Assembly: GCA_030674455.1 (NCBI GenBank)
Contig: JAUSGQ010000015.1
Coordinates: 5,574 to 69,573 of the forward strand
Direction of reading: 5' to 3'
Source: a bacterium
GTDB taxonomy: Bacteria > Patescibacteriota > Minisyncoccia > Phycocordibacterales > UBA2100
DNA length: 64,000 nt
Numbering within the stretch: the stretch's first letter is position 1; each line of letters begins with the position of its first letter. Below the pieces are notes generated by a model, which saw nothing but the letters and a program-made list of their open reading frames with translations, ran no database searches and was not told where the DNA came from. The position numbers and the translations under genes are program-made. This document shows positions 2,425 to 56,778 of this stretch, piece after piece.

Positions 2425-3522
2425 CTAAAAATTAAAAAGTGGATTAATGATTCCGGCAGTCGCCAGTGCATTCGAAAGGTTGAGAAGCGCTAGCGCGATT
2501 ACGATGAGACCGGCTGTCTTGAAGAATATTCCTTTCCACGGCTTGTGCGCGATGTTGAGAGAGCCGAATGATAGGAGCGCCAGCATGGGAAGCGTGCCGA
2601 GAGCGAAGAATGTCATGGTGAGAGCGCCTGTCATGAAGCTGCCTGTCGAGAGCGCGTAGAGCTGCATTGATTGTGTGAATCCACACGGCAGAAAGAACGT
2701 TCCGATGCCGACGAGCACAGGGGCTAGGTAGTGATCGTGCCTGCTTCCGCGCACTACATGCCGCGAGAAAACTTTAGGGAGCGTGAACTGTAAGCGTTTT
2801 GTGAAATGGAACACGTCAAGCAGGTTAATTCCAAGAATGAGCATCACGAGAGCGACAATGACTCCAAGAACAATATTGGCCGTTAGTCCGAGATGAAGAG
2901 AATTACCGAGTATTCCCACAACGCCGCCCAAAACAAAAAAACCGGCCAATCTTCCAACATGAAATAACGATTGCGTTCTCCATGTCCCGCCTTCTTTTGC
3001 GGAACTTGCGGAAAGCGAGAGTACAAGCCCGCCCACTATCGCAAGACACGTAGAAACAGAGGCAATGAGTCCGATTACAAACGCAGTTCCATAACTCACA
3101 TCCGACGAAGTAATCAGATTGGTTAATCCGGCTTTTTGGAGTGCAAGAAATCCAACTATGATAACGAGCGCTATGGGAAATGCGTAGGCAAAATCTCCCC
3201 AGCCGGCATTCTTCTTAGCTTTTTCCAAAGAAAGCGTATAGCCGTGGCCTTTAACAAGCTTCGTCAGCTCTTCGGCTATCAACTCCGGCGCTTTGGCAAA
3301 CTCTCCCGCAATCGTTACCTGATGGCTTGCGAGCGAGGCCTCCACACGGGAAACATTCGGCAACTCCTTAAACGTCTCCTCAATGAGGAGCGTGCAGGAG
3401 GCGCAATGCATTCCGTGTACGTGAAAGGTGTAAGTCTGTTGTTGCGCTTCTGAGCCTATGAGTCCGACATCGGCACCTGTAGACGGACCGACCGATCCAT
3501 GGTCGGCATCTGTAGACGACAT
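2425..3522 (-). CDS. HMA (heavy-metal-associated) domain fused to a multi-TM DsbD_2/CcdA-like membrane domain
   Basis: GMHCASC metal-binding motif in a ferredoxin-like HMA domain, followed by about 8 TM helices with LPCGFT and STCLAIVGG motifs. The N-terminal 20 aa (MSSTDADHGSVGPSTGADVG) are encoded by a copy of the GTCTACAG palindromic element. Confidence 0.7.
   Translation of the reverse strand: MSSTDADHGSVGPSTGADVGLIGSEAQQQTYTFHVHGMHCASCTLLIEETFKELPNVSRVEASLASHQVTIAGEFAKAPELIAEELTKLVKGHGYTLSLEKAKKNAGWGDFAYAFPIALVIIVGFLALQKAGLTNLITSSDVSYGTAFVIGLIASVSTCLAIVGGLVLSLSASSAKEGGTWRTQSLFHVGRLAGFFVLGGVVGILGNSLHLGLTANIVLGVIVALVMLILGINLLDVFHFTKRLQFTLPKVFSRHVVRGSRHDHYLAPVLVGIGTFFLPCGFTQSMQLYALSTGSFMTGALTMTFFALGTLPMLALLSFGSLNIAHKPWKGIFFKTAGLIVIALALLNLSNALATAGIINPLFNF
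3470..3519 (-). repeat. In-frame copy of the GTCTACAG(A/G)TGCCGA palindromic element (doubled) encoding the HMA protein N-terminus
   Basis: On the coding strand the sequence is ATGTCGTCTACAGATGCCGACCATGGATCGGTCGGTCCGTCTACAGGTGCCGAC, which matches the intergenic element in repeats R1, R5 and R6. Confidence 0.6.
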
Positions 3523-5216: not shown

Positions 5217-6338
5217 CTAGATACCGCAGCCGCTTTGCTGGCGAGGCTGCGCAGACGCACCGCCGGCTTCTACGCCGCAGCCGCTGCCGCCTCCGCCCTG
5301 CGCGGGAGCGCTCACTTGCGATAGAATGTTCCGAAATCCTGCCGCACTTGAATAATTCACTCCTAGCATCTCGCGCGGAGAGACTTTTTTCCAATCAATT
5401 CCCTTGCCTTGCATGTATTCCGCCATGGTGAGATACGTGTCCGGGAACCAGTATGAGTTGACCTTTAGAGCATACTTGTACATATTCTCCTCGCTCATGC
5501 CTTGAGCAGCCATGAGTTCCAATAGCCCGAGCATCGCCATGCCGTGATTGCAGTCGGGGAAATGCGTGGAATTTCCGCAGCACGGCCGATAAATGTTTCG
5601 CGACACGCGGTCGACAAGTTCCTGCTGCTCTTCAGTCAACGCCACGAGCGCGTGCTTGCCGTAGTGTTCCATTGCGCCGCCTTTCGCAATTGTCCATCCG
5701 CCGGTTGAGGCAAAATTCCCGGCTCCGCCGTATGCCGGATTCATCATTTCCGTTTTGTCGCCCAGTATCGGATTTTCATTGGCAAGTCCGAATGCCCAGA
5801 GCAAATTCAAGAGATATCCGGCGTTATTTCCATCGATTGTAAGCTCACCATTGGTACGCCCTGAAAGAAGTTTTTCGTACTCGGAAGGGAACGAGCCGCC
5901 GGTTGTGGCGGCAGGCCAAGCCACGAAATCTGCTGATTCGCCTGTAGACGGACCGCGCGACTCGTAAACTTGTTTGAGCGCGACGGGGTCAATGGCACCG
6001 GCTTCAACCAGCCGCGCGCCCAAATCGCCCCACACAACCGGCAGCTTGACGCCTTTCGCCGGAAGAACCGCCTCTTCAATCGCAGAAGGACCGGAAGCAC
6101 TTCCTGTTTTTGCAAACAGATTCGCGATGCTTCCCCATTGCGAGCCGGGCATTGCGCTCGCGATAATAATTCCCGCGATAATGATACTGACCGGAGTTCC
6201 GTACTCTTGGTAAAGCGCTTTCCAGTTTACTCCTTTAGACGCGGAATGTTCCGAGTGATGATGCTGGCAGCACGAATGTGTGGCATGTTCCTGATGCGTG
6301 CCGGAATGATGTATATTATTCGACGAATGATTTTCCAT
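5217..6338 (-). CDS. His/Cys-rich membrane-anchored protein (putative metal-binding), novel
   Basis: N-terminus HHSGTHQEHATHSCCQHHHSEHS, one TM, then a large extracytoplasmic domain with CCGNSTHFPDCNHGM and a C-terminal GGGGSGCG...SGCGI. Contains an in-frame GTCTACAGG fragment (GPSTGES). Confidence 0.5.
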   Translation of the reverse strand: MENHSSNNIHHSGTHQEHATHSCCQHHHSEHSASKGVNWKALYQEYGTPVSIIIAGIIIASAMPGSQWGSIANLFAKTGSASGPSAIEEAVLPAKGVKLPVVWGDLGARLVEAGAIDPVALKQVYESRGPSTGESADFVAWPAATTGGSFPSEYEKLLSGRTNGELTIDGNNAGYLLNLLWAFGLANENPILGDKTEMMNPAYGGAGNFASTGGWTIAKGGAMEHYGKHALVALTEEQQELVDRVSRNIYRPCCGNSTHFPDCNHGMAMLGLLELMAAQGMSEENMYKYALKVNSYWFPDTYLTMAEYMQGKGIDWKKVSPREMLGVNYSSAAGFRNILSQVSAPAQGGGGSGCGVEAGGASAQPRQQSGCGI

Positions 6339-7603: not shown

Positions 7604-8128
7604 CTAAGGTGTAACGAGTGCCTTGATATCAAGCTGAAGAACGCCGCCGGCTTCATCGGTGAGCGTCACGAACCGGTCGATTTGGCCGACGCCGGCAGGG
7701 CCGTGAGCATTGGGGTCATAGACTACGCGCACGGTTCGGCTTTCTCCCGGCTTCAACGTTTCGTTTGCGGGCGGAATGTAGCCCATGCCAGGCATTCGAA
7801 ACGGCCCTTTCACACTCCCCTCGGCAGTGAGGAGGTAGGCGGTAGTACACATGCAGGATGTGAACATGCTGCTAACTGTAATGTCTTTTTCGGTCGGATT
7901 CGTTACGCTGAATTCTTTGTACACGAGCCCATTCTTCATGGAGATAGTGCCAAAGTCGTAAAGAATTTCCGGAGCGGCAAGTTCGCTTTTTTGGCCGCCG
8001 GTCGTGGCGGCACCTGTAGACGGTCCTCCGCTTGCTTGCGCCGGCAGAGGCGCTTGATTGGTGCGGCCCCACCACATGAGGCCGAATCCGACGAGAACGA
8101 CAGCCGCGACTGTAAGTATTGTTTTCAT
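7604..8128 (-). CDS. DUF1573-like membrane-anchored protein
   Basis: N-terminal TM, Gly/Thr linker (containing in-frame GPSTGA from a GTCTACAGG fragment), then an Ig-like domain with an SCMCT motif, as in DUF1573 proteins. Confidence 0.6.
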   Translation of the reverse strand: MKTILTVAAVVLVGFGLMWWGRTNQAPLPAQASGGPSTGAATTGGQKSELAAPEILYDFGTISMKNGLVYKEFSVTNPTEKDITVSSMFTSCMCTTAYLLTAEGSVKGPFRMPGMGYIPPANETLKPGESRTVRVVYDPNAHGPAGVGQIDRFVTLTDEAGGVLQLDIKALVTP

Positions 8129-17071: not shown

Positions 17072-17207
17072 GTGCCAATCAACGAATGAATTCCAATCTA
17101 CAAATAACTGCGAATAAAATACGCTCACCGTCTACAGGTGCCGACCAATGACCGGTCGGCCATTTGTAGCCATTTGTAGTATTCGGATGATTTGTATATT
17201 GGGACAT
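17072..17207. repeat. MITE-like intercistronic element R1 (ends GTGCCAATCAACGAATGAATTCCAATCTACAAAT ... ATTTGTATATTGGGAC), carrying the nested GTCTACAGGTGCCGACCAATGACCGGTCGGC palindrome
   Basis: Shares more than 100 bp with R5 (35290-35459) and R6 (37475-37640). Confidence 0.8.
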
Positions 17208-17210
17208 AGG

Positions 17211-18644: not shown

Positions 18645-18845
18645 GGTTGTATGTGATTGTTTTTTGGATTCTTTAAGCACCCCCTCGTCGCATTAAAACC
18701 ACGCGTTTTCTGAACTTCAAACGGGGCAGGTGTCGCGCGAGTGTATCACAGGCAATAGGCACTAGGCAAATGACCGTACAGTCCGTAACCAGCAGTTACT
18801 AGTTAGTTGTCAATGTACCAAGGGGCGCCCTTGCCGCTTCTTTGT

Positions 18846-18883
18846 ATTGCTTTAGCAAATGCGGCCGCATTTTCTAAAGCAAT
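18846..18883. promoter_or_regulatory. Palindrome ATTGCTTTAGCAAATGCGGCCGCATTTTCTAAAGCAAT (core ATGCGGCCGCAT) in the rpsB upstream region
   Basis: One of three ATGCGGCCGCAT-centred long palindromes in the window; the others are at 20989-21028 and 40015-40056. Confidence 0.6.
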
Positions 18884-19006
18884 ATGCAGTCATACCAACA
18901 TTTTCAGTATCCGATACTTAGTTATAGACCTAAGTATCTGGATGCAAAAATCGCGAGACGCTCTGGACACTTTCGCCACTTTGTACTTATTGGTATCGTA
19001 TAGGTT

Positions 19007-20631: not shown

Positions 20632-20942
20632 CCAAACGCGAGTGTATCTTGCATTAAGTATCTGTGAACAACTTCCTTTACAAATTTTTATGTCGCGGGA
20701 TACTTAACCCAGCGACAGGTATCACACCTGCTGGTACAACTTAGGGAGCTCGAATCGCTTCATGCTTTTGGTGTGAATGCTGAGAGCACCCACCTGGTAA
20801 AACCCAGGCTTGCCGTGCCTGCCGCGCCTTGCCGCCCCGCTAACTGCGGGGCGCTAGAGCGTAAGGGTAATCTAAAGACTGAAAGACAAACTCGAGAGCG
20901 TGCCGCAAGATGGAAAGGGCGTTTTCGGGGCCGCCCATAGAA

Positions 20943-20972
20943 ACTCCGCATCCGCGGGGTTTTTGTGTTTTA
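20943..20972 (+). terminator. Rho-independent terminator module CTCCGCATCCGCGGGG-TTTTTGTGTTTT (copy 1)
   Basis: GC hairpin plus a T run. The identical 32 bp module ATAGAAACTCCGCATCCGCGGGGTTTTTGTGT recurs at 21650-21684 after relE. Confidence 0.6.
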
Positions 20973-21620: not shown

Positions 21621-21659
21621 TCGGACTCAAAGGGCTACCCTTGGAATGGTTCATAGAAA

Positions 21660-21684
21660 CTCCGCATCCGCGGGGTTTTTGTGT
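21660..21684 (+). terminator. Rho-independent terminator module (copy 2) after relE
   Basis: CTCCGCATCCGCGGGG-TTTTTGTGT. Confidence 0.65.
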
Positions 21685-22449: not shown

Positions 22450-23907
22450 ATGGCAAAAGCAAAAACTGAAACAACAAGCAAGGCGACAAAAAAGACCCTG
22501 TACGAAAAGCTGTGGGATGCGCATGTGGTGCGCGAAGCAAAGGGCGAACCTACTATATTGTATATAGACCTGCATCTAATCCACGAGGTTACTACGCCGC
22601 AGGCATTCACCGGATTGCACAACCGCAAACTGCCTGTTCGCCGTACCGACCTCACCATCGCGACCATGGACCATTCGGTGCCTTCCGCAAATCGCAAGAA
22701 GCTCCCGTGGCCCGACGTCATGGCGCAAAAGCAAGTAGAGATGCTGGCGAAGAACTGCAAGAAGCATGGCATCACGCTCTACGGTCTCGACAGCGAGCAT
22801 CAGGGTATCGTACACGTCATCGGGCCGGAACTTGGTATCACACAACCGGGAAAAACAATCGTCTGCGGAGACAGCCACACATCCACGCACGGCGCTTTCG
22901 GTGCGCTTGCCTTCGGCATCGGCACGTCGGAAGTCGAGCACGTACTCGCCACACAGTGCCTGCTTCAGAACAAAACAAAAACGATGGCAATCACCGTAAA
23001 CGGCTCGCTCAAGCCCGGCGTCTATTCCAAAGACATTATCCTGCGCATCATCCACGAGCTCGGCATCGGCGGAGGAACCGGCTATACCTTTGAATATCGC
23101 GGGAGCGCCATCCGCGCCCTCTCGATGGAAGCGCGCATGTCGATCTGCAATATGAGTATCGAAGCCGGCGCGCGCGCGGGAATAATAGCTCCCGACCAGA
23201 CCACAATTGATTACCTCGAAAAGCGCGTGAAATTCAAAAATGATGGCCGTCTACAGGTGCCGACCATGGACCGGTCGGCCGAAAAAAAGCAGGCCATCGC
23301 GAAGTGGCTCTCATGGCAATCCGATGAAGGCGCAAAATTCGACGAAGAACTCATCATTGATGCGGCTACTATTGAGCCGATGGTCACATGGGGTACGAAC
23401 CCGGGCATGTCTGTCGGCATCAGCCAAAAAATCCCAAAAGAAGAAAACGAGGACATCAAAAAAGCACTGGAGTATATGGGGCTCAAGGGAGGCCAAATGA
23501 TGCGCGGGCAAAAAATTGATTACGTATTTTTCGGCAGCTGCACCAACTCCCGCATTGAAGACCTGCGCATAGAAGCGAATATCCTCAAAGGCAAAAAAAT
23601 CGCTCCCGGCGTCACCGTCTTCGCGGTTCCCGGCTCATTCGAGGTCAAAAAGCAGGCCGAAGCCGAGGGACTCCACAAAATATTTCTCGATGCCGGGTGT
23701 GAGTGGCGCGAAGCTGGCTGCTCAATGTGCATCGGCATGAATGGCGACCTTGTGCCTTCGGGAAAATACTGCGCTTCCACTTCAAACCGCAACTTCATCG
23801 GCCGCCAAGGCCGAGGAGCCCGCACGCTCCTCATGTCGCCCGCGATGGCCGCGGTCGCCGCAATTCTAGGCGCTGTCGGCGATTCCCGCGACTACATAAA
23901 GATATGA
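22450..23907 (+). CDS. leuC: 3-isopropylmalate dehydratase large subunit
   Basis: Aconitase-family motifs (GDSHT, SCTNSRIEDL, CIGMNGD). Contains a roughly 12 aa in-frame insertion RLQVPTMDRSAE encoded by the GTCTACAGG palindromic element at 23248-23280. Confidence 0.9.
   Translation: MAKAKTETTSKATKKTLYEKLWDAHVVREAKGEPTILYIDLHLIHEVTTPQAFTGLHNRKLPVRRTDLTIATMDHSVPSANRKKLPWPDVMAQKQVEMLAKNCKKHGITLYGLDSEHQGIVHVIGPELGITQPGKTIVCGDSHTSTHGAFGALAFGIGTSEVEHVLATQCLLQNKTKTMAITVNGSLKPGVYSKDIILRIIHELGIGGGTGYTFEYRGSAIRALSMEARMSICNMSIEAGARAGIIAPDQTTIDYLEKRVKFKNDGRLQVPTMDRSAEKKQAIAKWLSWQSDEGAKFDEELIIDAATIEPMVTWGTNPGMSVGISQKIPKEENEDIKKALEYMGLKGGQMMRGQKIDYVFFGSCTNSRIEDLRIEANILKGKKIAPGVTVFAVPGSFEVKKQAEAEGLHKIFLDAGCEWREAGCSMCIGMNGDLVPSGKYCASTSNRNFIGRQGRGARTLLMSPAMAAVAAILGAVGDSRDYIKI
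23248..23280 (+). repeat. In-frame copy of the palindromic element CGTCTACAGGTGCCGACCATGGACCGGTCGGCC within leuC
   Basis: Identical core to the intergenic copies in R1, R5 and R6. E. coli LeuC lacks these roughly 12 residues at this position. Confidence 0.75.
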
Positions 23908-24040
23908 AGTCCCAATCTACAAATGATACGAATACTACCTGCCCGCCGAAGCCTCGGCGCAGGCGGGCGAATGGCTACGAATACACGTGGTTTAACATTT
24001 GTAGTTATTTGTAGATTGGAATAAATTTGTAGATTGGTAC
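23908..24040. repeat. MITE-like intercistronic element R3, filling the leuC stop to leuD start gap
   Basis: AGTCCCAATCTACAAAT...ATTTGTAGATTGGTACACCT-ATG, with a nested GC hairpin module CCTGCCCGCCGAAGCCTCGGCGCAGGCGGGCG. Confidence 0.8.
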
Positions 24041-24044
24041 ACCT

Positions 24045-24644
24045 ATGAAATCATCTCAATTCAAAGACCTCACATCCACGCTCGCACCCCTGATGCGCGA
24101 CAATGTCGACACCGACCAGATAATTCCGGCGCGCTTTCTCACGGCAACCGACAAAAAGGGATTCGGCATGCGCCTCTTCATGGATTTGCGCTACGAGGAT
24201 GACGGCTTCACGCCCAAGCCCGATTTCGTCCTGAACCAAAAGAAATACAAGAGCGCAAAAATCCTTCTCGCGCATGAAAATTTCGGCTGCGGTTCCTCAC
24301 GCGAACACGCGCCCTGGGCCATCATCGGCGCAGGCTTTACTGCCGTCATCGCGGTCTCATTCGCCGACATATTCAAAAATAATTCGGCAAAAAATGGCTT
24401 GCTCCTCGTCGAACTGCCCCGAGAAGTGATAGACGCGATGCATGCCGACGTCGAAAAAAACCCTAAAGAGAAAGCAAGTATAAATTTGGAAAAGCAAACG
24501 CTCACGTGGAAAAAGCAGGCGCACACATTCGCAATCAACCCGTTCGTTAAGAAGTGCCTTATGGAAGGCCTTGATGACATCGGATACACTTTAAGCTTCG
24601 CTAAGGAAATCAAATCGTTCGAAAACACAAGAGATCAGGCATAA
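24045..24644 (+). CDS. leuD: 3-isopropylmalate dehydratase small subunit
   Basis: LMRDNVDTDQIIPARFL... is a typical LeuD sequence. Confidence 0.9.
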   Translation: MKSSQFKDLTSTLAPLMRDNVDTDQIIPARFLTATDKKGFGMRLFMDLRYEDDGFTPKPDFVLNQKKYKSAKILLAHENFGCGSSREHAPWAIIGAGFTAVIAVSFADIFKNNSAKNGLLLVELPREVIDAMHADVEKNPKEKASINLEKQTLTWKKQAHTFAINPFVKKCLMEGLDDIGYTLSFAKEIKSFENTRDQA

Positions 24645-24754
24645 ATGCTCGGGGCATGCGACCTTTCATTGACGATTCATGGATGTGCCTATATGAGCAA
24701 TGTGCCTGTGGGCGGAAGCCCCTTTTCGGCTAAGGATTCCCAAAGCTGAAGACA

Positions 24755-24797
24755 GGCGCACCAAAGAGCGCCACCATACGGTGGTGTTTTTTGTTTT
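24755..24797 (+). terminator. Rho-independent terminator after leuD (CCACC-ATAC-GGTGG followed by TGTTTTTTGTTTTC)
   Basis: Read from the sequence. Confidence 0.7.
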
Positions 24798-24870
24798 CTA
24801 ATCTAACCACTGCTAGCAAAACCATTTTTGCTTTCAATTCTCACCTCGCTCCCACATTTTCTAACCATTC

Positions 24871-25161
24871 TCATTCTAACATTTTGCAAAATGTTAGAAC
24901 GTGAACTGCACGGGCGGTTAGCTTATGCCTTACGCTCCTCGCGTCGTAGCGTTTCAGAATGAGTCCTGCAATTGCCATCTTGCGCAGGTGGTCGGATGCA
25001 TTCTCGTACCCGATGTTCAATCGCTCGGCGATATCCTCAACCGAAAGCTCCGGCTCTTTGTGCAACAGGTTAAGAATTTCGAGCCGCCGGTGATTCGCAA
25101 AACCTTTTACCACCCTCTCAAGCCGCCGATAGTTAGTTGGATTGTTAGTCGCTCCTGTCAT
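24871..25161 (-). CDS. ArsR/SmtB-family HTH transcriptional regulator (paralog 1)
   Basis: 96 aa with ...RRLEILNLLHKEPELSVEDIAERLNIGYENASDHLRKMAIAGLI... (wHTH). The C-terminal ...VLTFCKMLE is encoded by the 3' palindrome. Confidence 0.75.
   Translation of the reverse strand: MTGATNNPTNYRRLERVVKGFANHRRLEILNLLHKEPELSVEDIAERLNIGYENASDHLRKMAIAGLILKRYDARSVRHKLTARAVHVLTFCKMLE
24874..24899. promoter_or_regulatory. Palindrome TTCTAACATTTTGCAAAATGTTAGAA overlapping the 3' end (C-terminal codons) of ArsR paralog 1
   Basis: Read from the sequence. Same core as the 44 bp palindrome upstream of the gene. Confidence 0.65.
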
Positions 25162-25170
25162 GCTTGCATG

Positions 25171-25214
25171 TTATCCACATTCTAACATTTTGCAAAATGT
25201 TAGAATGTGGATAA
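25171..25214. promoter_or_regulatory. Perfect 44 bp palindrome TTATCCACATTCTAACATTTTGCAAAATGTTAGAATGTGGATAA between the ArsR gene (divergent) and leuA
   Basis: Read from the sequence. 10 bp upstream of the ArsR start codon. Confidence 0.7.
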
Positions 25215-25268
25215 CCGAATGAGCGGAGAGATGAAATCTCGATGAGAAAACGGTCGAGACGTAGCCGC

Positions 25269-25306
25269 GCCTCTCGCAAGAAAAGCCAGTTCTGCTATAT
25301 TAGTGA
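25269..25306 (+). promoter_or_regulatory. Conserved promoter-like motif CCTCTCGCAAGAAAAGCCAGTTCTGCTATATTAGTGAG (-10 TATATT 25285-25290) upstream of leuA
   Basis: Paralogous to the motif at 22399-22436 upstream of leuC. Confidence 0.55.
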
Positions 25307-25318
25307 GACCAAAACAAT

Positions 25319-27049
25319 ATGCGTAATTCAGCAAAAAAATACCGTTCGTTTCCGCCCGTCGGCCTCAAAGACCGGACGTGGCCAAACAAGACCATAACCA
25401 AAGCGCCTCGCTGGTGCTCTGTCGATTTGCGCGACGGCAATCAGGCGCTCATAACGCCGATGAACCTTGAGCAGAAACTCAACATGTTCAAACTGCTCGT
25501 GGACATAGGATTCAAGGAAATCGAGGTGGGCTTCCCTTCCGCTTCGCAGGTGGAATTTGATTTTGTCCGCACGCTTATCGAGCGCAAGTTGATTCCGGCC
25601 GACGTTACCATCCAAGTGCTGACGCAAGCGCGCGAACACCTCATCGAAACCACGTGCCGCTCGCTCGTGGGAGCTAAGCGCGCGCTCATTCACGTGTACA
25701 ACTCCACTTCGGAACTCCAGCGCCGCGTCGTATTCCGAATGGGCAAGAAGGAGGTAAAAGAGCTGGCCGTCAAAGGAACCGCATGGACGCGCCAGTACAG
25801 CGAGAAATATCTTAATGGCACGGATGTCTTCTACGAATACAGTCCCGAAAGCTTCATGGGAACAGAGCTGGATTTCGCAGTTGAGGTGTGCGACGCAGTC
25901 GTCGATGAATGGAAACCGAAAGCTGGAGAAAGGGTCATCATCAATTTGCCCAACACGGTTGAACTCGCAACCCCCAATATTTACGCCGACCAAATCGAGT
26001 GGTTCTGCCGACACTTCAAATCACGCGACAAAGCGATTATCAGTCTTCACTGCCACAACGACCGCGGGAGCGCAGTTGCTGCGTCCGAGCTCGGCATCAT
26101 GGCCGGCGCCGAACGCGTGGAAGGCACGCTCTTCGGCAACGGCGAGCGCACCGGCAATGTCGACATCATCACGCTCGCGCTCAATCTCCACACACAGGGC
26201 ATCGACCCGGGACTCGACCTGCACGATATGGACCACTGCATTGAAGTCTACGAATCATGCACCGACCTCACCGTCCCCCCGCGCCATCCATACGCGGGCG
26301 AATTGGTCTTTACCGCATTTTCCGGCTCGCATCAAGACGCGATAGACAAGGGCTTCCGTGCGATGAAAGATTCCGGGAAAACTCTCTGGGAAGTTCCCTA
26401 CATCCCGATGGACCCCAAAGATGTCGGCCACACCTACGAGGCGGTCATCCGCATCAACAGCCAGTCCGGCAAGGGAGGCGTTGCGCACATTCTGCGCGTC
26501 GAGTTCGGCTACAACACACCGAAGGCGATGCACCCCGAGTTGGGCAAGATGATCCAACGCATTTCCGACGCGACCGGCCAAGAAGTACTGCCAGGAGTAA
26601 TCCGAAAAGCGTTTGAGGATGAATATCTGAATCGTTCGAGCCCAGTCTCGCTCGAGAGTTTCAAGATCAGCGACCAGAGCGGCCTAAATGGCGACGTCAC
26701 CTCAATTTCTGCAGTCATCAAAAAGGACGGGAAAAAGCGCACGGTTAAAGACACCGGCAACGGCCCTATCGATGCCTTCAGCAAAGCACTCAAGCGCGCT
26801 GGCGCTGGCCACTACACGTTCCTCTCATACGAGGAACACGCGCTCGGCAAAGGCGAAGACGCGCGCGCCGTCGCCTACATTCAAATAGCCGATGAACATG
26901 GCAAAGCATATTTCGGCGTCGGCACCGATTTCAACATTGTCGGCGCATCTCTGCGCGCTCTTTTGAGCGCACTGAATCGTTCGGAACAATCTAAAACCGA
27001 CAAATCAAAACAGAAAGCATCCGCCACCGGCGCAAAGAAACACACATGA
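25319..27049 (+). CDS. leuA: 2-isopropylmalate synthase (long form with C-terminal regulatory domain)
   Basis: DLRDGNQ, HCHND and a LeuA dimer/regulatory C-terminal domain. 576 aa. Confidence 0.9.
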   Translation: MRNSAKKYRSFPPVGLKDRTWPNKTITKAPRWCSVDLRDGNQALITPMNLEQKLNMFKLLVDIGFKEIEVGFPSASQVEFDFVRTLIERKLIPADVTIQVLTQAREHLIETTCRSLVGAKRALIHVYNSTSELQRRVVFRMGKKEVKELAVKGTAWTRQYSEKYLNGTDVFYEYSPESFMGTELDFAVEVCDAVVDEWKPKAGERVIINLPNTVELATPNIYADQIEWFCRHFKSRDKAIISLHCHNDRGSAVAASELGIMAGAERVEGTLFGNGERTGNVDIITLALNLHTQGIDPGLDLHDMDHCIEVYESCTDLTVPPRHPYAGELVFTAFSGSHQDAIDKGFRAMKDSGKTLWEVPYIPMDPKDVGHTYEAVIRINSQSGKGGVAHILRVEFGYNTPKAMHPELGKMIQRISDATGQEVLPGVIRKAFEDEYLNRSSPVSLESFKISDQSGLNGDVTSISAVIKKDGKKRTVKDTGNGPIDAFSKALKRAGAGHYTFLSYEEHALGKGEDARAVAYIQIADEHGKAYFGVGTDFNIVGASLRALLSALNRSEQSKTDKSKQKASATGAKKHT

Positions 27050-28140
27050 GCAAGACCGGCACCATAGCAGTCCTGCCGGGCGACGGCATCGGCCCCGAGA
27101 TAATGGCCTCAGCAATCAAGGTCTTGGACGCAGTCAGCGCGAAATGCGGCCACACATTTGAGACAAAAGAAGGATTAACCGGCGGCCTCGCGTACGACAA
27201 ATTCGGCGTCCACCTGCCGGAAGAGACAATAAAAATCTGTGAAGCTTCCGACGCAATCCTCTTCGGCGCCGTCGGCGGTCATGTTTCCGACCAGGAATCC
27301 CCGCGCTGGAAAGATGCCGAAAAGAACGTCATCCTTGGGCTTCGCAAGAAATTCAATCTGTTCGCCAACCTGCGCCCGCTCAAAGTCTGGCCCGGAACGG
27401 AATCTTTTAGCCCGCTTCAGGAGCGCTTCATCAAAGGCACCGACGTTTTAATCGTGCGCGAACTTATCGCCGGTCTCTACTTCGGCCCGATGCGCCGCTT
27501 TGAAGAGAATGGAGAAATTACAGCGGAAGAAACGAGCCGCTACACATGGAAACAAATCGAGAACGTCGTGCGCATCGCGTTTCAGGCCGCGCAAAAGAGA
27601 AAAAAGAAACTCACCGTCGTCGACAAAGCGAATGTGCTGGAAACGTCGCGTCTCTGGCGCGAAGTCGCGCGCAAAATCCAGCTCGAGTTCCTTGATGTCG
27701 CCATGGATTTTATGTTCGTCGACAACGCGGCCCAACAGCTCGTTCGCTCACCCGCTTCGTTTGATGTCATTGCGACAGACAACATGTTCGGCGACATTTT
27801 AAGCGACCTCGGCGGCGCCGTCGTCGGCTCTCTCGGCTTGGTACCTTCCGCCAGCATATCCGCCAAAGGCGGAGAAAAGAAATTCGGCCTTTACGAACCC
27901 GCCCACGGCTCCGCGCCTGACATTGCAGGGAAAGGAATCGCGAACCCGACCGCGCAAATCCTCTCGCTCGCGATGCTCCTGCGCTACACCTACGAGCTAG
28001 ACAAAGAGGCGCAGGCAATTGAGGAAGCGGTGCTCGCAGCATGGAAAGCAGGCAAGAAAACGAAAGACCTCGCGGCCCCGGGCGAAGCGAGTCTTTCTAC
28101 CGATGAGTTCACATCTTGCGTCATCGAGAGATTGAAGTAA
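27046..28140 (+). CDS. leuB: 3-isopropylmalate dehydrogenase
   Basis: MSKTGTIAVLPGDGIGPEIM..., NMFGDILSDLGG, GSAPDIAGKG. Confidence 0.9.
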   Translation: MSKTGTIAVLPGDGIGPEIMASAIKVLDAVSAKCGHTFETKEGLTGGLAYDKFGVHLPEETIKICEASDAILFGAVGGHVSDQESPRWKDAEKNVILGLRKKFNLFANLRPLKVWPGTESFSPLQERFIKGTDVLIVRELIAGLYFGPMRRFEENGEITAEETSRYTWKQIENVVRIAFQAAQKRKKKLTVVDKANVLETSRLWREVARKIQLEFLDVAMDFMFVDNAAQQLVRSPASFDVIATDNMFGDILSDLGGAVVGSLGLVPSASISAKGGEKKFGLYEPAHGSAPDIAGKGIANPTAQILSLAMLLRYTYELDKEAQAIEEAVLAAWKAGKKTKDLAAPGEASLSTDEFTSCVIERLK

Positions 28141-28156
28141 TAATCAGGTGACTATG

Positions 28157-28260: not shown

Positions 28261-28265
28261 ACTCT

Positions 28266-29204
28266 ATGCAAGCGACAAAATACATCTGGTTTAATGGGAA
28301 GCTCGTTCCATGGAAGAGCGCAAAAATCCATGTGCTATCGCACTCGCTCCACTATGGTACTGCTGCTTTCGAGGGCATCCGCATGTACGACACAAAAAAA
28401 GGTCCTGCCATCTTCCACCTGAAACGACACATGGAACGCCTCATCTTCTCGGCCAAAAGTCTCGGGATGGATTTGCCGTATACACTCCCCCAGCTCATGC
28501 AGGCCGCGGTAGACACGGTGAGCAAGAATAAATTGAAGTCGTGCTACATCCGCCCCATCGCCTACTACGGTTTCGGCGAAGTGCGCGTGCTCCCCACCAA
28601 CTGCCCTATCGAAGTCGCTATCGCCGCATGGCCGTGGGGCGCCTACTTGGGCGACGAGCCGGCTCGCATCACAGTGGTAAAGACGCTCCGCATCCATCCG
28701 CAAACGCTCCGCGTGAAAGCGAAAATCAGCGGCCACTATGTGAACTCCATGCTCGCTGGCCGCGAGGCCACAGACCGCGGATTCACCGAAGCGCTTCAAC
28801 TAGACTACAAGGGCAATATCGCCGAAGGCCCGGGCGAAAATTTCTTTATCGTTAAGGGAAAGACCCTTACGACGCCGGCACTCGGCTCGATTCTCCCCGG
28901 CATTACTCGCGAATCTGTCATCACCCTCGCGCGCGACTTGGGCTACAAAGTGGTGGAGCGTGCGGTAACGGTTAAAGACGCGCTTTCTGCCGACGAATGT
29001 TTCTTCACCGGCACCGCCGCGGAAGTGACGGCCATCGCCTCGATAGACAATAAGAAAATGAAAACCGCTAGTGGTTCGTCTACAGATGCCGATGCCTACT
29101 CCATCGGCCCAGTCACTAAACAAATCCGCGAAGAATTCCTCAAAATAACGAGAGGCGAAAATCCAAAGTACAAAAAGTGGCTGACGTTTGTAAAAGAATA
29201 CTAG
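28266..29204 (+). CDS. ilvE: Branched-chain amino acid aminotransferase (class IV)
   Basis: YIWFNGKLVPW, a C-terminal EGPGENFF...GTAAEV motif region. ATG at 28266; the track's TTG start at 28254 lies inside R4. Contains an in-frame palindromic element (SSTDADAYS) at 29077-29108. Confidence 0.85.
   Translation: MQATKYIWFNGKLVPWKSAKIHVLSHSLHYGTAAFEGIRMYDTKKGPAIFHLKRHMERLIFSAKSLGMDLPYTLPQLMQAAVDTVSKNKLKSCYIRPIAYYGFGEVRVLPTNCPIEVAIAAWPWGAYLGDEPARITVVKTLRIHPQTLRVKAKISGHYVNSMLAGREATDRGFTEALQLDYKGNIAEGPGENFFIVKGKTLTTPALGSILPGITRESVITLARDLGYKVVERAVTVKDALSADECFFTGTAAEVTAIASIDNKKMKTASGSSTDADAYSIGPVTKQIREEFLKITRGENPKYKKWLTFVKEY
29077..29108 (+). repeat. In-frame copy of the type-B palindromic element CGTCTACAGATGCCGATGCCTACTCCATCGGC within ilvE
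   Basis: The same element occurs intergenically at 36767-36799 and at the purD 3' end at 56746-56778. E. coli IlvE is about 10 aa shorter at this position. Confidence 0.7.
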
Positions 29205-35289: not shown

Positions 35290-35459
35290 ACTTGTACCAA
35301 TCAACGAATGAATTCCAATCTACAAATAACTGCGAATGAACAACTCGCACCGTCTACAGGTGCCGACCAATGACCGGTCGGCCATTTGTAGCCATTCGCC
35401 CGCCTGCGCCGAGGCTTCGGCGGGCAGGTAGTATTCGGATGATTTGTAGATTGGGACAT
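35290..35459. repeat. MITE-like intercistronic element R5 (sufS-sufU junction) with nested GTCTACAGG and GC-hairpin modules
   Basis: Near-identical to R6 over about 165 bp. Confidence 0.85.
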
Positions 35460-35467: not shown

Positions 35468-36718
35468 TTATTGAAATTTCCTTTGAATCGTAACGAGCGC
35501 ACTCACCAATCGGTCAACCTCTTCGGCGGTATTGTAAATACAAAGACTAGCTCTCACCGATGCATCAAGCGAAAGGCTCTCGTGCAAAATCTGCGCGCAG
35601 TGGTGGCCGGCGCGAACGGCAATCCCCTCTCTATCAAGCAGGGTCGCAATATCGTGCGCGTGAATTCCTTTGATCGTAAAACTGAATATCGGCGCTCTCG
35701 CCTTCGTTGTCGCGGGGCCGAGCAGTGCGAGGCCGGGAACATTTTTGAGTGCGCGGAGCGCGTAGGCAGTCAGACTGCCTTCATATTTCGCAATGTTATT
35801 CAATCCGATACTTTGCAGAAATGAAATCGCCGCGCCCAAGCCGATAACTTCGGCAACGGGCGGCGTCCCGCCTTCAAATTTCTCGGGCAAGGGCGCGTAG
35901 GTAGTCTTTGTGCGCGTGACTTCTGCTATCATGTGGCCGCCGAATTTATGAGGCGGCAATTTCTCCAACAGTTCTTTTTTACCGTACAAAACGCCAATCC
36001 CCGTCGGACCGTACATTTTATGGCCGGAAAAGGCCAAGAAATCGCACCCGAGCGCCTGCACGTCAACCGCGCCGTGCGCTATTGATTGCGCCGCGTCCAC
36101 CAGCACCAACGCGCCTGCCTTGTGCGCGAGTGAGATCATCTCCCGAACAGGATTCTCAGTTCCCAGTACGTTTGAAACATGAGTAACGCCGACAAACTTC
36201 GGCTTGTGCTTCGCCAATAATTTCTTGAAAGCGCCAATATCAATTCTTCCCTCGCTATTGAGCGGAACAAAATCTAGTTTCAATTTCTTCCGCGCGGTCG
36301 ACCGATCAATGGTCGACACCTGTAGACGGGCTGCGGCCTGCCACGGCACAATCATCGCGTGATGCTCCATGTCTGATAGCAAAATCCGGTCTCCACGTTT
36401 CAAAAAAGCCTCGGATAATCCGGCAACGACGACATTGATGCTCTCGGTTGCTCCCGAAGTAAATATGATTTCTTCGCGATGCTTTGCGTTTACAAATTCT
36501 TTTACCTGGTCGCGAACTTTCTCGTACGCTGCAGTCGCGCCTTCGGCAAGCGCGTACACGCCGCGATGAACCGGCGCATTCTGCGAGCGGTAAAATTTGT
36601 CCATCGCTTCAATAACCGTAGCGGGCTTCTGCGTCGTCGCCGCGTTGTCCAAATACGCCAGGGGCTTCAGGCCTCGCTTTTGAAATATGGGAAATTGATT
36701 GCGGATTTTGGGAATCAT
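35468..36718 (-). CDS. sufS: Cysteine desulfurase SufS
   Basis: Class V aminotransferase, PLP-lysine region ...FLAFSGHKMYGPTGIG..., and a C-terminal ...RAGHHCAQ.... Contains an in-frame palindromic element (RLQVSTIDRST) at 36296-36329. Confidence 0.9.
   Translation of the reverse strand: MIPKIRNQFPIFQKRGLKPLAYLDNAATTQKPATVIEAMDKFYRSQNAPVHRGVYALAEGATAAYEKVRDQVKEFVNAKHREEIIFTSGATESINVVVAGLSEAFLKRGDRILLSDMEHHAMIVPWQAAARLQVSTIDRSTARKKLKLDFVPLNSEGRIDIGAFKKLLAKHKPKFVGVTHVSNVLGTENPVREMISLAHKAGALVLVDAAQSIAHGAVDVQALGCDFLAFSGHKMYGPTGIGVLYGKKELLEKLPPHKFGGHMIAEVTRTKTTYAPLPEKFEGGTPPVAEVIGLGAAISFLQSIGLNNIAKYEGSLTAYALRALKNVPGLALLGPATTKARAPIFSFTIKGIHAHDIATLLDREGIAVRAGHHCAQILHESLSLDASVRASLCIYNTAEEVDRLVSALVTIQRKFQ
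36296..36329 (-). repeat. In-frame copy of GTCTACAGGTGTCGACCATTGATCGGTCGACC within sufS
   Basis: On the coding strand this gives CGTCTACAGGTGTCGACCATTGATCGGTCG. E. coli SufS is about 11 aa shorter here. Confidence 0.7.
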
Positions 36719-37474: not shown

Positions 37475-37640
37475 GTGCCAATCAACGAATGAATTCCAAT
37501 CTACAAATAACTGCGAATAAAATACGCTCACCGTCTACAGGTGCCGACCAATGACCGGTCGGCCATTTGTAGCCATTCGCCCGCCTGCGCCGAGGCTTCG
37601 GCGGGCAGGTAGTATTCGGATGATTTGTAGATTGGGACAT
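37475..37640. repeat. MITE-like intercistronic element R6 (sufB-sufD junction)
   Basis: TGTGCCAATCAACGAATGAATTCCAATCTACAAAT...GATTTGTAGATTGGGACAT. About 97% identical to R5. Confidence 0.85.
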
Positions 37641-41506: not shown

Positions 41507-41932
41507 TTAGCCGACAAGGCCGGTGTCGGCACCTGTAGACGGTTTGCGTGAATCTGCGACTCGTAGGGCGATGCACGAAACTTCTATGCGCGCATTCTTC
41601 GGCAGAGAAGATACGCCGACCGTAGCCCGCGCCGGTTTATGCTCGCCAAAAACAGCCGCATACACTTCGTTCATGTCTTTAAAATCATTCATGTCGCGAA
41701 GATACACATTGACGCTCGCGACCGAGGCAAAGCCAACGCCGGCGGCGCGAAGAACTTCTCCAAGATTCTTGAATATCTGCTCGGTTTGCTCCCTTATTCC
41801 TCCTTTTACGAATTCTCCTGTAGCCGGGTCAATTGCAATCTGCCCCGAGCAAAATATCGTATCCCCCGCCACAGTGGCCTGCGAATACGGACCGATTGCC
41901 TTGGGTGCCTTCTCTGTCTGAACTGTGTGCAT
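41507..41932 (-). CDS. ridA: RidA (YjgF/TdcF) family reactive-intermediate deaminase
   Basis: PKAIGPYSQA..., ...ARATVGVSSLPKNARIEV.... The 13 aa C-terminal extension ...RKPSTGADTGLVG is encoded by a GTCTACAGG element copy (41526-41543). Confidence 0.8.
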   Translation of the reverse strand: MHTVQTEKAPKAIGPYSQATVAGDTIFCSGQIAIDPATGEFVKGGIREQTEQIFKNLGEVLRAAGVGFASVASVNVYLRDMNDFKDMNEVYAAVFGEHKPARATVGVSSLPKNARIEVSCIALRVADSRKPSTGADTGLVG

Positions 41933-56745: not shown

Positions 56746-56778
56746 CCGTCCACAGATGCCGATACCTACCTCATCGGC
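56746..56778. repeat. Type-B palindromic element CCGTCCACAGATGCCGATACCTACCTCATCGGC forming the purD C-terminus (..ALAMPMR*) and 3' flank
   Basis: Read from the sequence. Confidence 0.6.

What the first reader, a model, noticed from the sequence alone, without database searches (positions are those of the whole stretch)
23248..23280. A roughly 34 bp palindromic element (GTCTACAG[G/A]TGCCGA...) is inserted in-frame into many unrelated genes, in the manner of Rickettsia palindromic elements
The same element, always sense-oriented relative to the host gene, occurs in at least seven protein-coding genes:
- leuC at 23248-23280, giving RLQVPTMDRSAE.
- sufS at 36296-36329, giving RLQVSTIDRST.
- ilvE at 29077-29108, giving SSTDADAYS.
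- The HMA protein N-terminus at 3470-3519, giving MSSTDADHGSVGPSTGADVG.
- The ridA C-terminal tail at 41526-41543, giving KPSTGADTG.
- The purD C-terminus at 56746-56778.
- Short GPSTG(A/E) fragments in the DUF1573 protein (8009-8026) and the His-rich protein (5935-5955).

It also occurs intergenically inside the MITE-like repeats R1, R5 and R6 and at 36767-36799. E. coli LeuC, SufS and IlvE are about 10-12 residues shorter exactly where the element sits, so these are insertions into surface loops or termini rather than ancestral sequence. The antisense orientation would introduce a TAG codon, which explains the orientation bias. Pervasive in-frame mobile palindromes are rare outside Rickettsia (RPE elements), so this is a striking genome-wide phenomenon.
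Basis: partly seen in the sequence, partly recalled or inferred. Interest (0 to 1): 0.85.

Follow-up and report, generated by a model that had tools for sequence, protein, structure and literature searches.

The report
33-base palindromic element inserted inside genes
A 33-base hairpin-forming repeat has been inserted, without disturbing the reading frame, into many unrelated housekeeping genes of a group of uncultivated groundwater bacteria; it is a real new family, but small palindromic repeats that sit in-frame inside genes were already known in Rickettsia and a few other bacteria.

Summary
The repeat is real. The window holds 12 clear copies and one remnant of a 33-nt unit, YCGTCTACAG-R-T-GCCGAYN(7-nt loop)NRTCGGC; chance predicts 0.14. 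The same unit occurs in 14 related genome bins and 117 metagenome stretches, giving 186 unique copies. Its 7-bp stem covaries.

Orthologue comparisons show clean 33-nt (11-residue) presence/absence differences in leuC, sufS, ilvE, the HMA protein and others. There are 19 filled/empty pairs, mostly without target-site duplication. These are discrete insertions, not ancestral sequence.

About 41-48% of copies lie in frame inside ORFs, in four of the six frames. The encoded peptides are loop-like, for example PSTGADxxx[IV]G and GPxGxxSAPVDG.

The purD copy is antisense, and across the lineage the count is 48 sense to 29 antisense. That is the ratio expected from three open sense frames and two open antisense frames.

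The best reading is a REP-like miniature mobile element with a CGTC-type tag. It may move as single-stranded DNA with help from an enzyme encoded elsewhere, but no transposase was linked to it.

Intragenic REPs and Rickettsia RPEs are the closest known kinds, so this is a new variant rather than a new category. A second, unrelated 33-nt in-frame palindrome family lies in ilvA, trpA and aroC.

The parts
23247..23279 (+). 33-nt element inside leuC (ORF 22450-23907 +), sense, frame giving GRLQVPTMDRS(A)
   Evidence: The exact 33-nt segment is absent from the syntenic E14 genome and from 24 LeuC orthologues. In the AF2 model it lies in a loop between helices 250-257 and 275-287, and residues 266-273 have pLDDT below 50.
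36297..36329 (-). 33-nt element inside sufS (ORF 35468-36754 -), sense, RLQVSTIDRST; stem variant GTCGAC/GTCGAC
   Evidence: It is absent from the E14 sufS and from 22 relatives down to 84% identity. B. subtilis SufS (5xt5) has an 11-residue gap at this point.
29076..29108 (+). 33-nt element near the 3' end of ilvE (ORF 28254-29204 +), sense, SSTDADAYSIG
   Evidence: It is shared, 33/33 identical, with E14 (L016/L059) and ERP119705 (L031) although the flanks are about 80% identical. It is absent from 17 other IlvE orthologues, including ones 92-93% identical. IlvE structure 4whx has a 10-residue gap here.
3487..3519 (-). Upstream copy of a tandem pair directly after the ATG of the HMA-domain membrane protein (ORF 2425-3555 -), SSTDADHGSVG
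   Evidence: It is absent from the orthologue in L021. E14 (L049) has a different copy (loop TACCGACCC) at the same place.
3454..3486 (-). Downstream copy of the tandem pair in the HMA protein, PSTGADVGLIG; 3' arm decayed (CATAGGC)
   Evidence: It is orthologous to copies in L049 and L021, which share the loop TGTCGGACT. The window copy differs from them at both position -2 and position +9 (T..A changed to C..G).
41510..41542 (-). Element forming the C-terminal tail of ridA (ORF 41507-41932 -), PSTGADTGLVG, followed directly by the TAA stop
   Evidence: The RidA profile TIGR00004 ends at residue 123 of 141.
7991..8023 (-). Variant copy (stem GCCGCC/GGCGGC) in the DUF1573-like/choice-of-anchor protein (ORF 7604-8164 -), PSTGAATTGGQ
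   Evidence: The L021 orthologue is 11 residues (33 nt) shorter here. The same variant occurs in L020.
5941..5951 (-). Decayed remnant (CCGTCTACAGG only) in the His-rich protein (ORF 5217-6338 -), GPSTGE
   Evidence: The E14 orthologue (L012) has an intact copy (PSTGADANPIG) at this site and L021 has none.
56746..56778 (+). Slightly diverged copy (GTCCACAGA) overlapping the 3' end of purD (ORF 56766-58046 -) in ANTISENSE; it encodes the last 4 residues (MPMR) and the TAG stop lies in its loop
36766..36798 (+). Intergenic copy just upstream of sufS
   Evidence: An identical 33-nt copy sits at the orthologous place in L007.
17128..17160 (+). Intergenic copy at the apex of a large palindrome (17071-17238) between tsf and a hypothetical ORF
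   Evidence: The composite folds at -22 kcal/mol (z = -4.4). The E14 syntenic spacer has no such copy.
35350..35382 (+). Intergenic copy at the apex of a large palindrome (35293-35460) between sufS and the nifU-like gene
37531..37563 (+). Intergenic copy at the apex of a large palindrome (37474-37641, 96% identical to 35293-35460) between sufB and sufD

Best explanation
This is a family of very small (33-nt) non-autonomous mobile elements of the REP type.

Anatomy. Each unit has three parts:
- a conserved, unpaired 5' tag, YCGTCTACAGRT, which contains CGTC;
- a 7-bp G+C-rich stem with a 7-nt loop;
- no terminal inverted repeats other than the hairpin itself.

What is shown:
- The unit enters DNA as one discrete 33-nt piece without duplicating the target.
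- 33 is a multiple of three, and the conserved part is free of stop codons in five of the six frames. An insertion into a gene therefore adds 11 residues instead of breaking the gene.
- In the two most used frames the peptide is small, polar and rich in Gly and Pro (PSTGADxxx[IV]G, GPxGxxSAPVDG). Copies survive in surface loops and at protein ends. Copies in less tolerant places are presumably removed by selection.
- Insertions have been gained, and probably lost, repeatedly since the related species diverged.
- Some copies are decaying.

What is inferred and not shown:
- The hairpin plus tag may be recognised on single-stranded DNA by an HUH/Y1-type enzyme encoded elsewhere (RAYT or IS200-like). 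That enzyme would cut and paste or copy it without a target duplication.
- Intergenic copies inside operons may also act as RNA or DNA hairpins.
For: Over-representation:
- 12 copies in the window against 0.14 expected.
- The pattern carries about 41 bits, yet it gives 58 genomic loci in 14 related MAGs and 117 metagenome stretches.

Structure (186 unique copies selected only on positions 1-15):
- The 3' arm is complementary in 93-96% of copies.
- Pair 16/26 is T-A 121, C-G 56, other 9.
- Pair 17/25 uses four Watson-Crick types: G-C 65, A-T 54, C-G 39, T-A 4. That is 87% paired, against 32% expected from the column composition.
- G.T pairs are rare, as expected for a DNA hairpin that must form on either strand.

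Discrete insertion:
- Exact 33-nt gaps appear in leuC, in sufS and in the N-terminal ilvE site, where the gap is reciprocal: E14 has the copy and the window does not.
- The His-rich, DUF1573-like and HMA genes show the same.
- There are 19 distinct filled/empty pairs with a 33-nt gap, and microhomology is 0-1 nt in 12 of them. An example is L018 tatacgtataat|CC...GGC|cttccgtacaaa against L054 tatacgtataat|cttccgtacaaa.
- Tandem copies are always 33 nt apart, seen 12 times.

Tolerance in genes:
- 77 of 186 copies (41%) lie in ORFs of at least 150 codons with positive coding score. Another 13 are ambiguous.
- Frames used: sense PSTGAD 33, sense RLQVP 13, antisense GPxGxxSAPVDG 19, antisense ADxxxxGTCRR 10.
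- The sense frame VYRCR is used twice and the TAG-containing antisense frame never.

Loop location: AF2 model of LeuC and gaps in solved SufS, IlvE and TrpA homologues.

Literature: tagged REPs, intragenic REPs and CGTC REPs without a known transposase are described in PMC3733652. The REPIN/RAYT model is in PMC3116915.
Against: - No mobilising enzyme is linked to the element. phmmer with IS608 TnpA and E. coli RAYT against six-frame ORFs of 1.19 Mb around copies found only one IS200-like tnpA (L070 3993-4445). Its flanks do not resemble the element. None of the 50 window ORFs scanned against Pfam or NCBIfam is a transposase.
- There is no strand bias in the window (7 on +, 6 on -) although the GC skew is monotonic. 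Lagging-strand ssDNA transposition would predict a bias.
- The most similar filled/empty pair has flanks only 87% identical. Current activity is therefore not shown.
- Orthologous copies are better conserved than their flanks. The C-terminal ilvE copy is 33/33 identical in three genomes whose flanks are about 80% identical. Simple selfish DNA that decays neutrally does not predict this. It suggests a constraint, gene conversion or lateral spread.
- The detailed anatomy does not fit any of the published REP families.
Confidence: 0.75

Rival explanations
1. It is a functional DNA signal kept by selection or molecular drive, not a transposon. One example would be a DNA-uptake or recombination signal, as with DUS/USS. 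Such signals also occur on both strands, sit inside genes in tolerant frames and are conserved across species.
For: - Orthologous copies are more conserved than their flanks: the C-terminal ilvE copy is 33/33 identical against about 80% in the flanks, and HMA copy B is identical in E14 and L021.
- The family is conserved across at least 14 species-level bins.
- Both orientations occur.
- No transposase was found.
Against: Uptake signals accumulate by point mutation within existing sequence. Here orthologues differ by clean 33-nt indels at 19 or more sites, and units form exact 33-nt tandem arrays. A hairpin with a free loop and a covarying stem is not a feature of known uptake signals. Density, about 1 per 5 kb in the window, is lower than for DUS/USS (about 1 per kb; own knowledge).
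Confidence: 0.07
2. The copies spread by recombination-type processes rather than by a dedicated transposase. Candidates are gene conversion between copies, hairpin-induced template switching or replication slippage. Tandem arrays and same-site replacements would be by-products.
For: - Exact 33-nt tandem arrays of up to 4 copies (L074).
- The window and E14 carry different extra copies at the same HMA site.
- Orthologous copies differ by coupled changes at -2 and +9, as if replaced by another sub-type. This is seen in HMA copy B and in the C-terminal ilvE copy of L164 compared with L031.
- The upstream flank resembles the element's own 3' end (CGGC) in 38 of 186 copies.
- No transposase was found.
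Against: De novo insertions occur at sites with no similarity to the element and no neighbouring copy, such as leuC, sufS, L018/L054 and L046/L099. Conversion or slippage cannot seed these. It may explain maintenance and arrays but not dispersal.
Confidence: 0.1
3. It is a classical MITE moved by a DDE transposase.
For: It is small, palindromic, dispersed and non-coding. Three copies sit inside larger MITE-like palindromes.
Against: - There is no target-site duplication: microhomology is 0-1 nt in 12 of 19 filled/empty pairs.
- There are no terminal inverted repeats apart from the internal hairpin.
- At 33 nt it is far below MITE sizes (PMC10969869).
- Inverted pairs 166-370 nt apart share no internal sequence.
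Confidence: 0.03
4. The extra residues are ancestral, or are convergent low-complexity coding sequence, and the DNA similarity is incidental.
For: The peptides are Gly/Ser/Pro-rich, like natural linkers.
Against: - The same 33-nt DNA occurs in non-coding DNA, in both orientations and in four reading frames.
- Close orthologues lack it.
- The chance expectation is 0.14 copies.
Confidence: 0.01

Closest known systems
CGTC-tagged REPs (Di Nocera, De Gregorio & Rocco 2013, BMC Genomics 14:522; PMC3733652), which include Rickettsia conorii RPE-4/RPE-6 and Neisseria dRS3
   Same: - A short (20-40 nt) palindromic repeat with an unpaired CGTC motif at one end.
- A short C-rich tail.
- Many sequence variants of stem and loop.
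- Some units inside ORFs, read through in frame.
- No dedicated transposase known.
   Different: - Here 7 nt (TACAGRT) separate the tag from the stem.
- The stem is 7 bp and G+C-rich, not 8-9 bp starting with A-T pairs.
- The loop is 7 nt, not 4-5.
- Units are mostly single or in head-to-tail 33-nt arrays, not head-to-head dimers.
- The intragenic share (41-48%) is far higher than described.
- The host lineage is not among the phyla listed.
Rickettsia palindromic elements (RPE-1 type; Ogata et al. 2000 and 2002, as summarised in PMC10969869)
   Same: Palindromic selfish repeats inserted in frame into many unrelated housekeeping genes, adding a peptide at sites compatible with the fold.
   Different: - RPE-1 type elements are about 100-150 bp and encode 30-50 residues. 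This unit is 33 nt and encodes 11 residues.
- There is no sequence similarity.
- The hosts here are free-living or episymbiotic groundwater bacteria, not Rickettsia.
- This element is used in four reading frames and both orientations.
GTAG REPs / REPINs mobilised by RAYT (Bertels & Rainey 2011, PMC3116915; Messing et al. 2012, PDB 4er8)
   Same: - Hairpin plus conserved unpaired tag.
- No target duplication is expected from HUH chemistry.
- Dispersed high-copy family.
- Clusters occur.
   Different: - GTAG appears only on the complementary strand and on the other side of the hairpin.
- There are no REPIN doublets.
- No RAYT was found near copies.
- REPs/REPINs are essentially extragenic.
Very small dispersed repeats of heterocystous cyanobacteria (Elhai et al. 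2008, Genome Res 18:1484; own knowledge, the paper is not in the library)
   Same: Mobile-looking repeats of only about 20-30 nt that form hairpins, are absent from orthologous sites, nest in one another and occur inside genes. Their mechanism is unknown.
   Different: Different sequence, host and unit length. Not tested here.

Membership tests
REP (repetitive extragenic palindrome), generic | 20-40 nt unit with an imperfect palindromic core able to form a stem-loop | tested here: met
   The unit is 33 nt. The 7-bp stem is supported by covariation at 16/26 and 17/25 in 186 copies. DNA folds show the stem.
REP (repetitive extragenic palindrome), generic | High copy number, dispersed through the genome | tested here: met
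   13 copies in 64 kb and 186 unique copies in 1.19 Mb of related DNA. Whole-genome counts are not available.
REP (repetitive extragenic palindrome), generic | Extragenic location | tested here: not met
   41% of copies (up to 48% with ambiguous cases) lie inside long ORFs. In the window 9 of 13 copies touch ORFs.
CGTC-tagged REP superfamily (PMC3733652) | Unpaired terminal CGTC motif | tested here: met
   Positions -1 to 3 read C 183, G 186, T 186, C 185 of 186 copies. Filled/empty pairs place the element boundary 1 nt before it.
CGTC-tagged REP superfamily (PMC3733652) | Stem of 8-9 bp directly after the tag, starting with A-T pairs; loop of 4-5 nt | tested here: not met
   There is a 7-nt spacer TACAGRT, the stem is GCCGAYN/NRTCGGC (7 bp), and the loop is 7 nt.
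CGTC-tagged REP superfamily (PMC3733652) | Mostly head-to-head dimers; short CCA tail | tested here: not met
   There are 12 head-to-tail pairs at 33 nt and a single head-to-head pair (L043). The tail is C at +32 in 66% of copies and C at +33 in 47%.
GTAG REP / REPIN-RAYT system | GTAG at the 5' end next to the stem | tested here: not met
   The element strand reads CTAC 5' of the hairpin. On the other strand GTAG lies 3' of the hairpin.
GTAG REP / REPIN-RAYT system | A RAYT (Y1 transposase) gene flanked by the repeats | tested here: inconclusive
   No RAYT-like ORF was found in 1.19 Mb around copies (best E = 0.12). Complete genomes were not searchable.
GTAG REP / REPIN-RAYT system | Inverted doublets (REPINs) as the replicative unit | tested here: not met
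   Single 33-nt units are what appear and disappear between orthologues.
Rickettsia palindromic elements (RPE-1 type) | About 100-150 bp palindromic unit encoding a conserved peptide of 30-50 residues | tested here: not met
   The unit is 33 nt and encodes 11 residues.
Rickettsia palindromic elements (RPE-1 type) | In-frame insertion into unrelated protein-coding genes at fold-compatible sites | tested here: met
   Seen in leuC, sufS, ilvE, HMA, ridA and others.
IS200/IS605-derived non-autonomous elements (PATE) | No target-site duplication | tested here: met
   Microhomology is 0-1 nt in 12 of 19 filled/empty pairs.
IS200/IS605-derived non-autonomous elements (PATE) | Distinct left and right subterminal hairpins matching those of a resident IS with tnpA | tested here: not met
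   The unit has a single hairpin. The only IS200-like tnpA found (L070 3993-4445) has unrelated flanks.
DDE-type MITE | Terminal inverted repeats and a target-site duplication | tested here: not met
   One search shows no duplication. One search shows no composite structure.

The most novel reading that the evidence does not exclude
The lineage carries at least two unrelated families of exactly 33-nt palindromic units that are adapted to the reading frame. They seed 11-residue loops across its housekeeping proteome and are actively maintained rather than merely tolerated.

Three observations point that way:
- Orthologous copies are more conserved than the surrounding coding DNA.
- The first base of the unit (-2) and the base 2 nt before the stem (+9) change together, both across the family (C-G 139, T-A 41, other 6) and twice between orthologous copies.
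- No known transposase is linked to the element.

This would mean either an undescribed mobilisation machinery whose cleavage site is read by base pairing with a guide next to the hairpin (as in IS608, but on a 33-nt substrate), or a host function such as a genome-wide recognition signal.
Probability: 0.15. Interest if true: 0.8.

Novelty: new variant of a known kind. Interest (0 to 1): 0.55.

Why it matters
- It adds a well-resolved case of selfish DNA living inside essential genes. The host is a poorly known, uncultivated groundwater lineage deposited under Patescibacteria/CPR names.
- The element is about as small as a mobile unit can be, and its boundaries are known to the nucleotide.
- With 19 filled/empty site pairs and 186 copies, it offers a clean data set on three questions: how proteins tolerate random 11-residue loop insertions; how repeat length and sequence become compatible with translation in four frames; and how tagged REPs without a known transposase move.
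- In practice, such units inflate apparent protein divergence and can mislead gene callers at N-termini and stop codons in these MAGs.

Tried and rejected
- Y1/HUH transposase search. phmmer with IS608 TnpA and E. coli RAYT (both sequences checked against PDB 2a6m and 4er8) was run against all six-frame ORFs of the window and 176 loci. It found nothing near copies except one IS200-like tnpA in L070 with unrelated ends.
- Pfam/NCBIfam scans of 50 window ORFs found no transposase, integrase or nuclease candidate.
- Composite-transposon idea. Inverted pairs of copies 166-370 nt apart (L041, L052, L030, L008) share no internal sequence.
- Target-site duplication or a strict target. Neither was found. 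The upstream CGGC enrichment (38 of 186) is partly explained by tandem or decayed upstream copies.
- A permuted unit (GTC...GGCYC inserted after a YC target) fits the cleanest empty sites worse than YC...GGC does.
- Rfam at gathering threshold finds only one tRNA in the window and nothing at the element.
- An RNA-only hairpin is disfavoured. G.T pairs are rare and both orientations occur in genes.
- Population-level polymorphism. All-against-all blastn found no filled/empty pair with flanks more than 87% identical.
- The window's own LeuC is not on record for contig look-up.
- Literature searches for such repeats in CPR/Patescibacteria found nothing relevant. Elhai et al. 2008 is not held in the library.
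Full report
**1. The observation**

The 15-mer GTCTACAGRTGCCGA occurs 12 times in the window with at most 2 mismatches, against 0.14 expected; none of 100 shuffles reaches 12. Reading every copy with its flanks gives a common unit: YC-GTCTACAG-R-T-GCCGAY-N9-RTCGGC. A profile HMM built from 149 copies recovers the same 12 copies plus an 11-nt remnant at 5941-5951, and nothing else in the 64 kb.

- LeuC, ORF 22450-23907 +
- SufS, ORF 35468-36754 -
- IlvE, ORF 28254-29204 +
- an HMA-domain membrane protein, ORF 2425-3555 -
- RidA, ORF 41507-41932 -
- PurD, ORF 56766-58046 -
- a DUF1573-like protein and a His-rich protein

One detail is wrong. The purD copy lies on the + strand, antisense to purD. 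It contributes only the last four codons and the TAG stop, which sits in the element's loop. In ridA the element forms the last 11 residues, followed directly by TAA.

**2. Anatomy**

The pattern GTCTACAGRTGCCGAYN9RTCGGC carries about 41 bits. Scans with it returned:
- 58 loci from 14 species-representative MAGs, all deposited under Patescibacteria-type names (Kaiserbacteria, "Saccharibacteria", Paceibacterota, Taylorbacteria, "bacterium");
- 117 metagenome stretches, mostly groundwater.

After removing duplicates there are 186 unique copies, selected only on positions 1-15. In these copies:
- G1, T2, A5, C6 and A7 are invariant, and C3 is present in 185 of 186. C at -1 is present in 183, and position -2 is a pyrimidine in 185.
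- The unselected 3' arm is complementary in 93-96% of copies.
- Pair 16/26 is T-A 121, C-G 56, other 9.
- Pair 17/25 is G-C 65, A-T 54, C-G 39, T-A 4, which is 87% Watson-Crick against 32% expected from the column composition.

The unit is therefore a 12-nt unpaired tag followed by a 7-bp stem with a 7-nt loop. G.T pairs are rare, which suits a DNA hairpin that can form on either strand.

An unexpected coupling links the first base (-2) and position +9: C..G 139, T..A 41, other 6.

Tandem copies are always exactly 33 nt apart (12 cases). L074 has four in a row.

**3. Insertions, not ancestral sequence**

- **LeuC.** An alignment with 24 orthologues, including ones 87% identical, shows the 11 residues GRLQVPTMDRS only in the window protein.
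- **E14 synteny.** The region from E14_metabat.bin.210 (L059) is about 80% identical at the DNA level. It has an exact 33-nt gap in leuC. It also carries a copy near the 5' end of ilvE that the window lacks, so the difference is reciprocal.
- **SufS.** The insertion is unique to the window genome among 22 relatives, the closest 84% identical. It is missing from the E14 gene.
- **ilvE C-terminal copy.** It is shared with E14 and ERP119705 but absent from 17 other orthologues, including two that are 92-93% identical.
- **His-rich gene.** E14 has an intact copy, the window a decayed one and L021 none.
- **DUF1573-like gene.** The window has a variant copy and L021 none.
- **HMA gene.** One copy is shared by three genomes. 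A second, different copy was added upstream in the window and in E14.
- **All loci.** An all-against-all comparison found 19 distinct filled/empty pairs with an exact 33-nt gap. Microhomology at the junction is 0-1 nt in 12 of them. The cleanest are L018/L054 and L046/L099. They define the inserted piece as YC...RTCGGC, without target-site duplication.
- **Solved structures.** SufS and IlvE homologues have gaps of 11 and 10 residues at the same places.
- **AlphaFold model of LeuC** (mean pLDDT 73.8). The insertion lies in the coil between helices 250-257 and 275-287, and residues 266-273 have pLDDT below 50.

**4. Where copies sit and how they are read**

I used a codon-usage score trained on long ORFs of the same loci. 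By this test 77 of 186 copies (41%) lie inside ORFs of at least 150 codons with positive coding score. Another 13 are in long ORFs with ambiguous score. About 86% of the window is ORF. Genes are therefore under-used roughly two-fold, yet used far more than by classical REPs.

| Frame | Typical peptide | Copies |
|---|---|---|
| sense | PSTGADxxx[IV]G / SSTDAD... | 33 |
| sense | xRLQVPxxxxSA | 13 |
| antisense | GPxGxxSAPVDG | 19 |
| antisense | ADxxxxGTCRR | 10 |
| sense | VYRCR | 2 |
| antisense, contains TAG | closed | 0 |

Overall that is 48 sense to 29 antisense, or 62% sense. This is what three open sense frames and two open antisense frames predict (60%). The 8:1 ratio in the window is a small-sample effect. 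One 781-codon ORF (L041) carries a sense copy and an antisense copy.

**5. Mechanism**

Shown:
- discrete 33-nt gain, and probably loss;
- no target duplication;
- a conserved tag plus a structurally constrained hairpin;
- tandem arrays;
- persistence in frame.

Inferred: mobilisation in trans on single-stranded DNA by an HUH/Y1-type enzyme, as proposed for REPs/REPINs and shown for IS200/IS605 (PMC3116915; own knowledge of IS608 biochemistry).

I could not link an enzyme to the element:
- 1.19 Mb around copies holds no RAYT-like ORF.
- It holds one IS200-like tnpA (L070 3993-4445, E = 1e-17 against IS608 TnpA), whose ends are unrelated.
- No transposase is present in the window.
- The window shows no strand bias (7 on +, 6 on -) despite a steady GC skew.

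Di Nocera et al. [quoted passage not shown]

Three observations go beyond a simple selfish-DNA picture.
- Orthologous copies are more conserved than their flanks. The C-terminal ilvE copy is 33/33 identical in three genomes with about 80% flank identity.
- Two orthologous copies differ between genomes by simultaneous change at -2 and +9. These are HMA copy B and the C-terminal ilvE copy in L164 compared with L031.
- The distribution of the C-terminal ilvE copy does not follow protein identity. That suggests precise loss or lateral spread.

Gene conversion among copies or a recognition constraint would explain these. I cannot tell which.

**6. Comparison with known systems**

The nearest described kind is the CGTC-tagged REP superfamily, which already includes the small Rickettsia RPE-4/RPE-6 and has intragenic members (PMC3733652). 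The present family shares the CGTC tag, the size class and in-frame residence. It fails the published stem, loop and dimer features (see the membership table).

It works like RPEs (PMC10969869) but is three to four times shorter. It is not a GTAG REP/REPIN, a PATE or a DDE MITE. The very small mobile repeats of cyanobacteria (Elhai 2008; own knowledge) are a further functional parallel.

Verdict: a new variant of a known kind, moderately interesting.

**7. Other points**

- A second, unrelated 33-nt palindrome (TCCGCCGGAGGCGGATCC...) sits in frame in ilvA, trpA and aroC. It encodes SAGGGSSSGGK-type loops. It coincides with a 10-residue gap in a solved TrpA homologue and recurs in the related loci.
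- The window is also rich in large intergenic palindromes. Three of them carry the element at their apex.

Noticed in passing
window 40438-40470 (ilvA), 45497-45529 (trpA), 46891-46923 (aroC); also L002, L016, L020, L038, L048, L065, L103, L138, L170: A second, unrelated 33-nt palindromic unit, TCCGCCGGAGGCGGATCC(T/G)CCTCCGGAGGACAA, symmetric about GGATCC, lies in frame in three biosynthetic genes. It encodes Gly/Ser loops ([35 protein letters not shown]). A solved TrpA homologue (5ey5) has a 10-residue gap exactly there. About 15-18 further sites occur in the related loci.
   Followed up: partly
window 17066-17238, 17795-17903, 23903-24042, 28153-28262, 35288-35460, 37469-37641, 39060-39169, 42774-42884, 62987-63095: Nine large intergenic palindromes are built from CCAATCTACAAAT / ATTTGTAGATTGG-type short units (repeat finder families D2, D3, D5, D7). 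Three carry the 33-nt element at the apex. Two of those (35293-35460 and 37474-37641) are 96% identical and flank sufS-sufD. The syntenic spacer in E14 instead has CTGTAATCTGTAAAC-type units.
   Followed up: partly
window 1115-1155 and 52652-52692; 18845-18888 and 40016-40059; 20936-20968 and 21652-21684; 24867-24903, 25173-25209; 31248-31289, 31345-31386, 31641-31682; 15173-15224 and 15865-15916; 41387-41482: Several further families of near-perfect intergenic palindromes are present, some with a GCGGCCGC core, plus a 2 x 48-nt tandem repeat upstream of ridA (repeat finder D8-D16). They may be terminators or other repeat families.
   Followed up: no
LeuC orthologues P0002, P0042, P0057 (alignment A1, columns about 330-415): Other members of the lineage carry different and much longer insertions (14 to about 70 residues, Arg/Ser-rich, two sharing ...LLRDAPE) at the same LeuC loop where the window has the 33-nt unit. 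This loop is a hot spot for in-frame insertions.
   Followed up: no
whole window (leuCDAB-ilvE 22450-29204; sufBCDS 35468-39950; ilvA 40084-41373; trpFCBA, aroC, aroA-aroK, trpD, trpG, trpE 42131-52608; purD 56766-58046): The window encodes complete leucine, tryptophan and shikimate-pathway gene clusters and a SUF system. Its closest relatives are nevertheless deposited as Patescibacteria/CPR (Kaiserbacteria, Parcubacteria), a group usually described as lacking amino-acid biosynthesis. Either the labels or the lineage are unusual.
   Followed up: no
L070 3993-4445: This is the only IS200/IS605-type tnpA found in 1.19 Mb of related DNA (E = 1e-17 against IS608 TnpA). It lies 1.4 kb from an antisense intragenic copy of the element at 5833-5863. 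Its own flanks carry different hairpins, one of them CGTCTTTGAGACG.
   Followed up: partly
window 36902-37531 (sufD-like ORF): The SufD-like ORF is only 209 residues and matches only profile positions 111-273 of TIGR01981. Its GTG start abuts the palindrome that carries the element at 37531. The gene may be short in this lineage or its 5' end may have been affected by the repeat.
   Followed up: no
window 53906-56725: A 939-residue ORF has a weak TraG/TraD C-terminal (coupling-protein-like) Pfam hit, next to a methyltransferase and directly upstream of the purD-end copy. This is a possible remnant of a conjugative or mobile region.
   Followed up: no
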